Positions 29,201 through 32,200 of a stretch of DNA of 64,000 nt are shown here, one piece after another. Positions within the stretch are counted from its first letter, which is position 1, and the number at the start of each line of letters is the position of its first letter. Position numbers: made by a program. The stretch is from Zootoca vivipara. Its lineage: Eukaryota. The DNA is taken from the NCBI RefSeq assembly GCF_963506605.1, contig NC_083292.1, positions 23,560,001 to 23,624,000 on the forward strand, in the 5' to 3' direction.

Positions 29201-32200
29201 AGAGAGATGTTCATGAAGCTGTGAAGGGCTGAAGTGATGGTTCTGTCAGGAGCAAGTGTGGAGTTCAGCTTGATGTTGCCTACTATATTTGTTAGATTGT
29301 GCCATGCCCTACTACTGCTATCTCTGCACAAAATAGAGTGCCAGAATGCTGAGGGGTGAGGACAGCTGGACATCTTCCAGAATGTTATTGGCAGGTAGTT
29401 GTACTCTCCCCAAGTGCTGCTGCTTTTGTAGGAGGAAACCTGTTTTCATCTCTTGCAGCATAACTTTTTTTGTTTTTTTTAAATGAATGTTTTTTTCTGC
29501 CACTGTTAACTCACAGTGCAACTGCAAAGAGACCCCCCCCCTATGAACAGCAGTAGCAATTAAAATCTAATCAGAGTTTTAAATAAGCGTGGCTACACAA
29601 AGCAAAAAGCAGCATTGTCAACTGACAATGTTTGCTGAACGCTCGCTCAGTTTCTAGTAATAATTTGACAAAAATGCTTGGAGTGAAGCCAATCTTATCT
29701 GTGTTTTTCCAAGTAGGTAGTTAATTAATAACTGTACTGCTTTTTATAGGATTATGATTTTGGGGCAACTGATTAAAATGTGCAAACTTGCTGTATTCCT
29801 GGCCTGAATCTGTTCCATGTTTTTAAGGTTCTTGAGTTTTGGGGCAAATATTTCTTGTGACATGATCTGCCCTCTTAGTTTCCCAGCGCAGACAGAATCA
29901 CCCAAGAACACATCAACAAGCTCTAAGTAGTGTTTTGCTTGTTCCCTTTGTGTCAGATGAGCTGCATTTCCAGTCTAGAGTGGATTTCTCCTTAAAACCA
30001 AAGGGCACAGTCTTACATATAATTACTTTCCCCTTCAATTAGTGAGGCCTACATTGAACTTTCCCAATGAGACCACAAATGGAACTGTGTAAAAGGAGCA
30101 GCACTCTTTGTTTTTATGCTGCCTGTAGTTACACAATCATCTGCCTTCTGTGCCCCTTGGGGAAAAGGTAATTATGGGCCTTGAGAGTTGATGGGCTGGT
30201 CAGATGTGCATCGATGCAAAGGGAAGAGATCTCTGATTTTACTGTGGTAGAAGTGAGACAGCAAGCATTTCTCCTGGTATATGTTCAGTTTCTATCCTTC
30301 AAGAGCTTACTGCCCATCTGCACCGTGTCTCCTCTCCCATTTATTAAAAATGGTGTGGTGGGGCATTTTAAAAAATGGGTCTGGAAAACAATGTAACACT
30401 TCCCTACTGCCTCAGGGAAGTAGTTCATGACAGCGCAAGTCTGATCCATTTCTCTGCAGACAGAAGAGGAAATGTGAGCTGTGTTAAGTGTGTAAAAAGT
30501 GCATTGCAGAAGACCTATATCTAAGTGATCAAGCCTTGCTGAACCAAGGATTTTCAGTTCAGCTTCCTGAACACAAATTTAACCACCGTTTCCTTCTGGG
30601 GTTTCTAGCCATAAGCACTTTGATGTCCTGAATTAAATATTAAAATAGTATGTTCCTTATAAGTTGCCCATTCACTCAGTGCAGTGTATCCATCCCTGGG
30701 TTGTGTCCCAACCTCAGGTTTAATCTAGTTACAGGTAGGTAGCCGTGTTGGTCTGAGTTGAAACAAAATAAAAAAATTCCTTCAGTAGCACCCTCAAGAC
30801 CAACTAAGTTTTTATTTTGGTATGAGCTTTCGTGTGCATGCACACTTCATCAGATAATCTGATATACTGGTAGGTTGAATTGGCTTCCTTTTAAAGAACA
30901 CTGAAATTGTAGCCTTCAGAGGAGCCTGCTGGGTTGAGGAGAATTCTGTTGCTTCCTCTAGCATGAATTGATTCAGCAAATGTTACTGGAAAGACTGATC
31001 AGTCACACACCTGCTTACACTTACCCTTCAGCAAACCTCAGATTAGGTGTCAATATTGTGCATCACAGGTCACTTAAGTAGACACATCATCAAAGCTAGT
31101 TTCCCTAGTGTCACTACATATCCCTTTGGAACCCGCCTTTCCTAAGCTGAGGTTAGGACCCGTTACCGACTTGCCCCAGGAAGCTTTGCGACTGCGGGAC
31201 AAATGGAGCACAGGTCTCTGCGGCTCCAAGTGTCAACCTGTTTGCGGCGTCAGACTTGTACCCCTTCTGATAAGTCTCTGCGAGAAATTTTTCCAGCATA
31301 AAACTAGGTTCGAGCCCTCTGGTATAGTAGGCCTTTTTAAGAATTCCGCCTCGCCCTGCGCCCCCAGCTGGTGGAGCGCGGCCCCGTCGGAGAGGCGAGC
31401 CAACACGGAGTTCTTGAGGGTGGCGGCGGATAATGAGGTTGCTTTCGCGGGTCGCACACCAAATGCGTCTTCAAGGAGGGGGCAGTTGCGCTGGGCGCCC
31501 ACACACCCCGCCGGCGAACAGAGGAGAGGCAGCCGGGAAGGCGCTGCAGTCGGCAGCGCTGCAAAGCCTCTTGGGCTAGGGCTATGCATTTGGACGTGGC
31601 GGGCCAATGCGTGCTCGCTTGGAGGGAGTCCGAGGCCGGAGTGGAGACAAGTTGGCGGCGGCACAGATAGACGCCGCCACTTGGCCATCCTCACCGGATC
31701 CGGCAAGAGCGGCGGCGGCGGCGCATACCACCCGTTGCCACAGCAACCGCCTCAGAGGCGGAACCGGACGATACTTTTAACGGTGGCAGGAAGTTCTGCC
31801 CTCTTTTTAACATATTTTGCGTCGATTGGTAGAAGCCAGTTTTCTCCTAGACCTAAGCCAATCGCCCTCAGCGGCTTTCTTTTCCACAGGCGCGCGCGCG
31901 GGGGAGGGGAGGTATTAAAATTCAGCGCTCCCTTGTCGCGATTGGTCGTAACCACAGAACTACAAAACGAAGACGCGCACCTCGCACGGATTTTAAACAG
32001 CTACCACATTCCGAGCTGGAAATGTGTGGCAAAATCTGGGGTTTTACTGTAAGCGCGACTCCATCCCTCTTCGTCCTCTTTCCAACTTGAGTCTTCGTGT
32101 GAAAAAAAATACTGTTTTCTTTGCTTGCTTTTAAACATCCTGCCAATGCAAATGCCAGCATGATGGTTACGTTGCTTGAAGCTTTAGTTCAGTCTCAGCC

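What the first reader, a model, noticed from the sequence alone, without database searches (positions are those of the whole stretch)
30311..32170. Orphan RFX/NF-Y CpG-island promoter that may drive an unannotated spliced minus-strand transcript
Seen: a CpG island about 2.5 kb from both neighbours, with no TIRs or TSD to explain it as a transposon. It holds a consensus X-box (GTTGCCACAGCAAC, 31734-31747), three CCAAT boxes, an ETS site and an octamer (ATGCAAAT near 32145). The minus strand shows an ordered set of processing signals: donor CCG|GTGAG (31695), donor AGG|GTAAGT (31025), a strong acceptor ctcacatttcctcttctgtctgcag| (exon starts at 30453) and AATAAA (30345-30340). Known: RFX X-boxes mark ciliary and testis genes. 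Inference: a lncRNA, microprotein gene or decayed gene convergent on the RBM14 3' end, located where human synteny breaks.
Basis: partly seen in the sequence, partly recalled or inferred. Interest (0 to 1): 0.7.

Follow-up and report, generated by a model that had tools for sequence, protein, structure and literature searches.

The report
Orphan CpG-island promoter, no gene found
A one-kilobase CpG island lying between two genes looks like a real, unmethylated promoter with binding sites for common transcription factors, but nothing in the sequence shows that it makes a protein or the particular spliced RNA that was proposed.

Summary
The CpG island (31101-32100) has GC 0.58 and CpG o/e 0.96, against 0.13 and 0.07 in the flanks. 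A lower-GC shoulder that keeps its CpGs runs on to about 32900.

Two features exceed chance. Three CCAATCG (NF-Y-type) boxes fall within 123 bp (0 of 2000 island shuffles). The consensus RFX X-box has only one other match in the window, just 3' of exon 1 of the neighbouring ZNRD2-like gene.

No tool supported a protein, a known RNA family or a transposon. The long open frames over the island show no codon periodicity and have no relatives.

The minus-strand donor, acceptor and AATAAA signals are real but only mildly unusual: 6 of 39 strong donors in the window have such an ordered set. Minus-strand orientation is favoured only weakly.

My best reading is an ordinary orphan CpG-island promoter driven by NF-Y, ETS and RFX. 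It probably fires in both directions and yields, at most, a short non-coding minus-strand RNA. Transcription, methylation and conservation could not be tested here. Interest is low to moderate.

The parts
31101..32100 (.). Core CpG island (GC 0.58, CpG o/e 0.96, 80 CpG)
   Evidence: per-100-bp profile
32101..32900 (.). Lower-GC shoulder that still keeps its CpGs (GC 0.42, 24 CpG, o/e 0.67). It has two ETS cores (32522-, 32634+) and a TATAAAA-like run near 32650. It probably belongs to the same unmethylated domain.
31734..31747 (.). RFX X-box GTTGCCACAGCAAC, a near-palindrome
31823..31829 (-). CCAATCG box 1 (NF-Y type)
31858..31864 (+). CCAATCG box 2; fits RRCCAATSR. Its centre is 33 bp from box 1.
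31939..31945 (-). CCAATCG box 3; fits RRCCAATSR
31604..31608 (+). Further CCAAT pentamer
31787..31794 (+). ETS site CAGGAAGT
32143..32153 (+). CCAAT overlapping the octamer ATGCAAAT, at the island's right edge
31690..31698 (-). Candidate donor CCG|GTGAGG (7 of 9 consensus positions); last exon base 31695
31192..31216 (-). Candidate acceptor ...TTTGTCCCGCAG| (15 of 20 pyrimidines); exon would start at 31191. It would give the missing 5' end of a middle exon.
31008..31027 (-). Tandem candidate donors AGG|GTAAGT (last exon base 31025; the only AGGTAAGT on the minus strand of the window) and CAG|GTGTGT (31011)
30454..30478 (-). Candidate acceptor ctcacatttcctcttctgtctgcag| (16 of 20 pyrimidines); exon starts at 30453
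30340..30345 (-). AATAAA on the minus strand. It is the third poly(A) hexamer on that strand downstream of the island, after 30816 and 30724.
31078..32052 (+). 324-codon frame with no stop and no Met; judged non-coding. Its length is unexplained.
31233..31751 (-). 172-codon open frame (ATG at 31688, 151 aa); judged non-coding
34602..34615 (.). Second X-box of the window, GTAACCATGGCAAC, 19 nt 3' of exon 1 of the ZNRD2-like gene. With the CCAAT at 34380 and the ETS at 34537 it repeats the island's set of motifs.

Best explanation
The region is an orphan CpG island that works as an RNA polymerase II promoter. It has been kept free of germline methylation.

How I think it works (inferred, not shown):
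- NF-Y binds the three CCAATCG boxes (31823-31945). An ETS factor binds 31787-31794, and an RFX dimer binds the X-box (31734-31747). Together they keep the core open.
- Transcription starts on both sides of this array, near 31.70-31.76 kb on the minus strand and near 32.0 kb on the plus strand.
- The plus-strand RNA meets ATTAAA at 32288 with no U1-type site before it, so it should be cut early.
- The minus-strand RNA carries U1-type sites at 31695, 31025 and 31011 and no poly(A) hexamer for about 940 nt, so it can grow longer. It may be spliced from 31025 to 30453 and end after AATAAA at 30345-30340.
- The product is non-coding.

Shown: the CpG and motif statistics and the absence of coding signal.

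Inferred: factor binding, the start sites, the strand preference and the splicing.
For: CpG content. The island has o/e 0.96 against 0.13 and 0.07 in the flanks. TpG+CpA o/e is 0.93 inside and 1.33 and 1.22 outside. That is the pattern expected if the island escaped methylation-driven decay.

Motifs.
- Three CCAATCG lie within 123 bp: 3 of the window's 8, and 0 of 2000 island shuffles give three.
- Five CCAAT against a shuffle mean of 1.84 (66 of 2000 shuffles reach five).
- The X-box pattern has 2 matches against 0.19 expected.
- Of eight GC-rich segments compared, this one has the most CCAAT (5, against 0-2 elsewhere). With the ZNRD2-like promoter it is one of only two that combine CCAAT, ETS and X-box with no GGGCGG box.

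Not a gene of another kind.
- 0 Rfam families reach gathering score in the window. The seven sub-threshold matches in 27-35 kb are all far below gathering score.
- 0 tRNAs.
- 0 of 119 open frames of 35 aa or more in 27.3-34.5 kb reach a Pfam cut-off.
- No codon periodicity: P3 is 0.7-1.0 here, against 3.6-28 for seven known exons of the window.

Strand asymmetry of donors and poly(A) hexamers.

Literature.
- About half of mammalian CpG islands are orphans, and many initiate transcription (PMC2944787, abstract read).
- Intergenic non-methylated islands in vertebrates, a lizard among them, map to non-coding RNAs, enhancers and unannotated transcripts (PMC3583005, passages).
- U1 sites and poly(A) signals set promoter direction (PMC3826338, passages describing Almada et al. 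2013).
- An array of CCAAT boxes drives a bidirectional promoter (PMC1802594, search listing and start of abstract only).
Against: There is no transcript, methylation, chromatin or cross-species evidence of any kind. All start sites are assumed.

The ordered donor, acceptor and AATAAA set is only mildly unusual. 6 of 39 donors of 8/9 or better in the window have one (3 of 15 on the minus strand, two of them the tandem donors here).

The 944 nt free of poly(A) hexamers on the minus strand falls within the range for the antisense sides of three known promoters (418, 827, 1328 nt). It is shorter than all five sense sides (none within 1500 nt, 1246, 1180, none, none).

Two poly(A) hexamers (30816, 30724) precede the proposed one.

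GC skew on the plus strand is positive at 31401-31700 (+0.12 to +0.23). By my recollection of published work on CpG-island promoters, a minus-strand transcript would be expected to show the opposite sign. With about 60 G+C per bin this is within noise.

The 324-codon stop-free plus frame (0 of 1000 and 1 of 2000 shuffles reach it) is not explained by this reading.
Confidence: 0.55

Rival explanations
1. The island is a distal regulatory element of the ZNRD2-like gene: an upstream alternative promoter or an enhancer. It would be co-regulated with the proximal promoter through the same factors.
For: It lies 2.5 kb upstream of the ZNRD2-like ATG (1.7 kb if the shoulder is counted).

The only two X-boxes in 64 kb sit in these two islands.

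Both islands combine CCAAT, ETS and X-box and lack GGGCGG boxes, unlike the RBM14-like island (6 boxes) and the 61.7-kb island (7 boxes).

Distal CpG islands are known to serve as alternative promoters of downstream genes (PMC5378174 and PMC5927659, search listing and start of abstracts only).
Against: The plus strand has no donor of 7/9 or better before 33502. It has four poly(A) hexamers within 1.5 kb, the first after 338 nt.

The one weak donor (ACT|GTAAGC at 32049, 6/9 by my reading) would have to skip exon 1, which holds the ATG.

There is no sequence similarity between the two islands.
Confidence: 0.2
2. The island is the stranded promoter of a gene that was lost or moved when this chromosome region was rearranged. 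In the human gene order as I recall it, that gene would be RBM4 next to RBM14, or LTBP3 head to head with ZNRD2. The promoter would still be bound by factors but would have no gene to drive.
For: The island sits exactly between an RBM14-like gene and a ZNRD2-like gene. By my recollection these two are not neighbours in human.

No coding exon accompanies the island.
Against: There is no relic of an RRM exon in 27-34.5 kb. In a tblastn with the window's own RBM14 RRM, the best match in that stretch has E 0.38.

A CpG o/e of 0.96 with sharp edges points to continuing protection, not decay.

The gene orders are recalled, not tested.
Confidence: 0.1
3. The island holds a protein-coding or microprotein gene. 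The candidates are the 151-aa minus-strand frame from the ATG at 31688, which has A at -3 and G at +4, and the 324-codon plus-strand frame read as an internal exon.
For: Both frames are longer than shuffles give. 324 codons: 0 of 1000 and 1 of 2000 shuffles. 172 codons: 6 of 1000 for the second-longest frame.

The plus frame ends in a TAA that is part of a GTAAGC donor-like site.
Against: Periodicity and composition.
- P3 is 1.0 and 0.7, and GC is flat across the three codon positions. Known exons give P3 of 3.6-28.
- The plus frame has 0 Met in 324 residues.

No relatives.
- Plus frame: none at near lengths or longer lengths.
- 172-aa frame against 1.84 billion representatives: one hit, E 2.7e-4, to a 1506-aa repeat protein matched in four repeats. 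I read this as chance.
- 105-aa frame: none, near lengths only.
- PDB: best E 0.28.
- Atlas recognition 1676 and 1157, both under the 2300 mark.

A stop at 31233 followed by a splice at 31025 would expose such an mRNA to nonsense-mediated decay. This follows from the 50-55 nt rule, which I recall.
Confidence: 0.05
4. The island is a GC-rich transposon or a retrocopy that still looks CpG-rich because it inserted recently.
For: It is an isolated GC-rich block with sharp edges.

Other CpG-rich segments of the window are repeats: SINE copies at 16948-17212, 22913-23176, 33640-33900, 54927-55192 and 59132-59375, and a LINE at 12.2-15.3 kb.
Against: No terminal inverted or flanking direct repeats. 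The one pair of arms around it (30013-30036 and 32637-32660) is 24 nt at 75 % and no better than chance.

No second copy in 64 kb.

No transposase, reverse transcriptase or other Pfam domain.

No Rfam family.

Genome-wide copy number and repeat libraries could not be checked.
Confidence: 0.05

Closest known systems
Orphan CpG islands / intergenic non-methylated islands of vertebrates (Illingworth et al. 2010, PMC2944787; Long et al. 2013, PMC3583005)
   Same: It meets the CpG-island sequence criteria. It lies away from any recognisable coding first exon. It carries promoter-type motifs. Such islands are described as unannotated promoters, non-coding RNA starts or enhancers, and the seven species studied included a lizard.
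   Different: Those classes are defined by experiment (CAP-seq or Bio-CAP, H3K4me3, transcripts). Here only sequence is available. At about 2.4 kb from each neighbour, this island would fall in the 'within 5 kb of a gene' class of Long et al., not their 'intergenic' class (passage on NMI localisation).
Bidirectional promoters driven by arrays of NF-Y CCAAT boxes, e.g. mouse Mrps12/Sarsm (PMC1802594)
   Same: Several CCAAT boxes in both orientations within less than 200 bp of a CpG-rich, TATA-less region.
   Different: No protein-coding gene is found on either side here. NF-Y binding and bidirectional output are untested. I saw only the search listing and the start of that paper's abstract.
RFX-regulated promoters with a high-affinity X-box (testis and cilia genes; RFX2 targets, PMC2797782)
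   Same: A full two-half-site X-box close to the presumed start region. That paper describes promoter-region X-boxes. It also describes a CpG-island promoter (Rfx2's own) that combines an NF-Y CCAAT box with RFX half-sites (passages).
   Different: No target gene can be named and RFX occupancy is unknown. The neighbouring ZNRD2-like promoter carries an equally good X-box, so the motif alone does not point to a ciliary or testis role.
Divergent lncRNAs upstream of protein-coding genes, such as the human transcripts named ZNRD2-DT / SSSCA1-AS1
   Same: A minus-strand non-coding transcript upstream of, and head to head with, a plus-strand ZNRD2 gene would have the same position and orientation.
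   Different: One search shows only that these names exist (12 papers hold at least one of the three names; listing only). Their position relative to ZNRD2 is my recollection. No human sequence was fetched or compared, so nothing can be said about homology.
MHC class II-type S-X-Y promoter module (RFX + X2 + NF-Y)
   Same: An RFX site and an NF-Y site in one promoter.
   Different: The nearest CCAAT starts 78 bp from the X-box. By my recollection the module needs a tight, fixed X-Y spacing of roughly 15-20 bp. This does not fit.

Membership tests
CpG island (sequence definition) | At least 200-500 bp with GC of 0.5 or more and CpG observed/expected of 0.6 or more | tested here: met
   31101-32100: 1000 bp, GC 0.58, o/e 0.96
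Non-methylated island / orphan CGI promoter | DNA unmethylated in germline or tissues | not testable with these tools
   Indirect only. CpG o/e is 0.96 and TpG+CpA o/e 0.93 inside, against 0.13/1.33 and 0.07/1.22 in the flanks.
Non-methylated island / orphan CGI promoter | No annotated or recognisable gene start at the island | tested here: met
   0 of 119 open frames reach a Pfam cut-off. No periodicity. No relatives. The genome's own annotation was not available.
Non-methylated island / orphan CGI promoter | Transcription initiation and H3K4me3 at the island | not testable with these tools
NF-Y-dependent multi-CCAAT promoter | Clustered CCAAT boxes with NF-Y-type flanks (RRCCAATSR) | tested here: met
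   Three CCAATCG in 123 bp, two of them fitting the full 9-mer. 0 of 2000 shuffles give three.
NF-Y-dependent multi-CCAAT promoter | Boxes lie about 60-100 bp upstream of the start site (recalled); NF-Y occupancy | not testable with these tools
   Start sites unknown
RFX target promoter | X-box fitting GTNRCC(N)RGYAAC | tested here: met
   31734-31747, exact; 2 matches in the window against 0.19 expected
RFX target promoter | RFX occupancy, and conservation of the site in orthologous loci | not testable with these tools
   No ChIP data.
Spliced, polyadenylated lncRNA gene | Donor, acceptor and poly(A) signals in order on one strand | tested here: inconclusive
   Present, but 6 of 39 strong donors in the window have such a set. 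Two earlier poly(A) hexamers intervene.
Spliced, polyadenylated lncRNA gene | Observed transcripts and junctions | not testable with these tools
   No RNA data
Protein-coding or microprotein gene | ATG-initiated frame with codon periodicity and/or relatives | tested here: not met
   Exons of the spliced model were read one by one. The longest ATG frame inside a single proposed exon is 43 aa, and it runs past the proposed poly(A) signal without a stop.
Transposable element | Terminal repeats or target-site duplication, other copies, element-type proteins | tested here: not met
   within this window only. Genome-wide copy number was not tested.
Known structured RNA gene (Rfam), including snRNA-type genes suggested by the octamer | Match to a covariance model at gathering score | tested here: not met
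   0 matches in the window. Best sub-threshold match is 26.9 bits against a gathering score of 88, to a bacterial sRNA family. 0 tRNAs.
MHC class II S-X-Y module | Tight fixed spacing between X and Y boxes (recalled) | tested here: not met
   The X-box ends at 31747 and the nearest CCAAT begins at 31825

The most novel reading that the evidence does not exclude
The island and the ZNRD2-like promoter form a head-to-head pair, 2.8 kb apart, wired by the same unusual motif set: CCAAT, then ETS, then X-box, with no GC boxes, in mirror order. On this reading the island drives a lineage-specific minus-strand non-coding gene that arose at, or survived, a chromosome rearrangement. That gene would be switched on together with ZNRD2 by RFX factors, for example in testis or ciliated cells.
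Probability: 0.12. Interest if true: 0.45.

Novelty: new member of a known kind. Interest (0 to 1): 0.25.

Why it matters
If the island is active, it marks an unannotated transcription unit or regulatory element next to two conserved genes in a reptile genome. That would be useful for annotation. It would also give a small worked example of how promoter-like islands behave at places where gene order differs between lineages.

The finding does not open a new kind of biology. Orphan CpG islands with NF-Y, ETS and RFX sites are common and well described. The one point a specialist might follow up is the pair of X-boxes shared with the neighbouring promoter.

Tried and rejected
Known RNA families. 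0 matches at gathering score in the whole window. A permissive scan of 27-35 kb gave seven matches, all far below gathering score. No tRNA.

Transposon. No meaningful terminal or direct repeats. A self-BLASTN of 30311-32170 against the window gave only the self-match and one 41-nt, 78 % match (30790-30830 to 11388-11351).

Protein.
- Pfam on 119 stop-to-stop frames gave 7 weak rows in 6 frames (E 0.012-0.34), all below their cut-offs.
- Three word-index searches found nothing.
- One exhaustive search gave one chance hit.
- PDB gave nothing useful.
- Two Atlas look-ups gave low recognition.

RBM4-like relic. A tblastn with the window's own RBM14 RRM found only itself, its paralogous second RRM (E 7e-6), and noise.

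GC skew as a pointer to direction was too noisy to use.

S-X-Y module: the spacing is wrong.

CTCF and ZNF143 motifs: I looked by eye and saw only poor partial matches. I ran no tool on them.

One search had a bug and counted the plus strand only. One search replaces it.

One search failed because my coordinates were off by two bases. One search corrected this.

The joined (spliced) sequence of the three-exon model was not built or searched. The exons were examined one at a time.

No contig that I took for human came up. No human sequence was fetched or compared.

The N run at 35836-35995 was left as it is.

Not checked:
- repeat libraries;
- any supplement of the papers cited.
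Full report
**What is there.**
The window is vertebrate DNA: GC 0.49, CpG o/e 0.44, with one N run at 35836-35995 that I left alone. The finding covers 30311-32170. Its core is a CpG island at 31101-32100, 1000 bp long, with GC 0.58, 80 CpG and o/e 0.96.

The edges of the island are sharp.
- To the left, 28800-31100 holds 13 CpG in 2301 bp (o/e 0.13).
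- To the right, beyond a shoulder, 32901-33600 holds 2 CpG (o/e 0.07).
- TpG+CpA o/e is 0.93 inside the island and 1.33 and 1.22 outside.

That contrast is what one expects if the island has escaped the methylation-driven decay that has eroded its surroundings. The shoulder at 32101-32900 has low GC (0.42) but still 24 CpG (o/e 0.67). It carries two ETS cores and a TATAAAA-like run.

**The listed signals.**
Every motif and processing signal is at the stated coordinate. The island has five CCAAT pentamers, not three.

Three things exceed chance.
- The CpG content described above.
- The NF-Y-type boxes. Three of the window's eight CCAATCG heptamers lie within 31823-31945. 0 of 2000 dinucleotide shuffles of the island give three, and five CCAAT is reached in 66 of 2000 shuffles.
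- The X-box. The pattern GTNRCCNNRGYAAC occurs twice in 64 kb against 0.19 expected, and 3 of 100 shuffles give two or more.

The second X-box (34602-34615) lies just 3' of exon 1 of the neighbouring ZNRD2-like gene.

The single ETS site and the single octamer are unremarkable: the window holds 8 and 5 such sites.

**Surroundings.**
Upstream on the plus strand is an RBM14-like gene.
- RRM domains are found by Pfam.
- The best solved-structure match of its second RRM is RNA-binding protein 14 (2dnp, E 1.9e-16).
- Its last exon runs to a stop at 28052-28054 and is followed by AATAAA at 28717.

Downstream on the plus strand is a ZNRD2/SSSCA1-like gene.
- Pfam finds Auto_anti-p27 at E 1.8e-7.
- Its ATG is at 34565.

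The island therefore lies about 2.4 kb from each neighbour, provided those are the true transcript ends. The names CCDC87-like, CCS-like and FAM89B-like that I use for other frames are from my own recollection of those proteins; no tool confirmed them. The statement that human synteny breaks here also rests on recalled human gene order and was not tested.

**Is it a gene of a known sort?**
No test said so.
- Rfam gives 0 matches at gathering score in the window. A permissive scan of 27-35 kb gives seven matches. The best is 26.9 bits against a gathering score of 88, to a bacterial sRNA family.
- There are no tRNAs.
- Of 119 stop-to-stop frames of 35 aa or more between 27.3 and 34.5 kb, none reaches a Pfam cut-off. 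Six frames have seven weak rows with E 0.012-0.34.
- A tblastn with the window's own RBM14 RRM finds only itself, its sister RRM at 25533-25658 (E 7e-6), and noise. The best match in 27-34.5 kb has E 0.38. There is therefore no decayed RBM4-like exon here.

**The long open frames.**
The island carries a 324-codon stop-free frame on the plus strand (31078-32052) and a 172-codon frame on the minus strand (31233-31751; ATG at 31688, 151 aa). Both are longer than shuffles give. The 324-codon frame is reached in 0 of 1000 whole-segment shuffles and 1 of 2000 block-wise shuffles. The 172-codon length is reached by the second-longest frame in 6 of 1000 shuffles.

Neither frame behaves like coding sequence.
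- The three-base periodicity score is 1.0 and 0.7, against 3.6-28 for seven known exons of the same window. GC is flat over the three codon positions.
- The plus frame has no methionine at all.
- The plus frame has no relatives at near or longer lengths.
- The 172-aa frame, scored against 1.84 billion representatives, gives one hit at E 2.7e-4. It is to a 1506-aa protein built of repeats, matched in four of them over about 33 residues. I read that as chance.
- The 105-aa minus frame has no relatives, but only near lengths were searched.
- The PDB gives nothing better than E 0.28.
- Atlas recognition values of 1676 and 1157 are both below the 2300 mark.

I conclude that the island is non-coding. 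I record the length of the plus frame as unexplained.

**The proposed spliced minus-strand transcript.**
The signals exist.
- The donor at 31025 is the only AGGTAAGT on the minus strand of the window. A second donor lies 14 nt further on.
- The acceptor at 30453 has 16 of 20 pyrimidines. 32 of 759 minus-strand acceptor-like sites score as well or better.

As a base rate, 6 of 39 donors of 8/9 or better in the window are followed in order by a strong acceptor and an AATAAA. That makes the set mildly unusual, roughly one chance in twenty for a stretch this size by my estimate. It is not compelling. Two other poly(A) hexamers (30816, 30724) precede the proposed one.

I read the exons one by one and did not build or search the joined sequence. 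The middle exon has stops in all three frames. The last exon's 43-aa ATG frame runs past the proposed poly(A) signal without a stop. A microprotein is therefore not supported.

**Which strand?**
From assumed start points, the two strands differ.
- The minus strand has three donors and no poly(A) hexamer for 944 nt.
- The plus strand has no donor and meets ATTAAA after 338 nt.

According to the U1-poly(A) rule for promoter direction, this favours the minus strand. I take the rule from passages of PMC3826338 that describe Almada et al. 2013.

The controls in the same window temper this. Five known sense directions have their first hexamer at 1180, 1246 or not within 1500 nt. Three antisense directions have it at 418, 827 and 1328 nt. 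The island's minus strand sits between the two groups. GC skew did not help.

**How it most likely works.**
I read the region as an orphan CpG-island promoter. NF-Y on the CCAAT array, an ETS factor and an RFX dimer keep it open and unmethylated. Polymerase starts on both sides. The plus-strand RNA is cut early. The minus-strand RNA is longer, possibly spliced, and non-coding.

The sequence statistics are shown. The binding, start sites, direction and splicing are inferred.

This matches what is described for orphan islands in mammals (PMC2944787, abstract) and for intergenic non-methylated islands in seven vertebrates including a lizard (PMC3583005, passages). It also resembles CCAAT-array bidirectional promoters (PMC1802594, listing and start of abstract only). 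RFX X-boxes in promoter regions, and a CpG-island promoter that combines an NF-Y box with RFX half-sites, are described in PMC2797782 (passages).

**Rivals.**
- *A distal promoter or enhancer of the ZNRD2-like gene.* Among eight GC-rich segments, only these two islands combine CCAAT, ETS and X-box with no GC box, and they do so in mirror order. The plus-strand processing signals argue against a spliced alternative first exon.
- *A promoter stranded by rearrangement.* This cannot be tested without other genomes.
- *A coding gene, or a transposon.* The tests above speak against both.

**Verdict.**
This is a new instance of a well-known kind of element.

Noticed in passing
window 34602-34615: The only other consensus X-box in the window (GTAACCATGGCAAC) lies 19 nt 3' of exon 1 of the ZNRD2-like gene. 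With the CCAAT at 34380 and the ETS core at 34537 it repeats the island's set of motifs. Both islands lack GGGCGG boxes.
   Followed up: partly
window 31078-32052 (+): A 324-codon frame with no stop spans the whole island. It is reached in 0 of 1000 and 1 of 2000 shuffles. It has no Met, no periodicity and no relatives. Its closing TAA is part of a GTAAGC donor-like site. Unexplained.
   Followed up: yes
window 16948-17212 (-), 22913-23176 (+), 33640-33900 (+), 54927-55192 (+), 59132-59375 (-): Five copies of a CpG-rich SINE-like repeat of about 260 bp, 74-92 % identical to the copy at 33640. They account for several of the small 'CpG-rich' segments.
   Followed up: partly
window 12163-15345 (+): A LINE-type retroelement with an endonuclease frame (Exo_endo_phos, E 5.4e-9) and a reverse-transcriptase frame (RVT_1, E 3.5e-35), in two adjacent long open frames upstream of the RBM14-like gene.
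   Followed up: no
window 46114-46564: A very GC-rich minisatellite (period 91-101 bp, about 4-5 copies, 87-88 % matches). It is open in three plus-strand frames, makes a 700-bp 'CpG island' (GC 0.72) and has no Pfam match.
   Followed up: no
window 35632-36057: Purine-rich (GGAA/GAGG-type) simple repeats flank both sides of the N run at 35836-35995, inside an intron of the ZNRD2-like gene. The N run was left untouched.
   Followed up: no
window 27835-27888: Two tandem 27-nt units in the last exon of the RBM14-like gene encode a repeated LSD..R.L peptide.
   Followed up: no
window 30716-30865: A stretch inside the proposed second intron looks like a dispersed repeat; the resemblance is my recollection only. 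Its one other match in the window is 41 nt at 78 % (11351-11388). It supplies the minus-strand AATAAA at 30816 and the acceptor-like site at 30752.
   Followed up: partly
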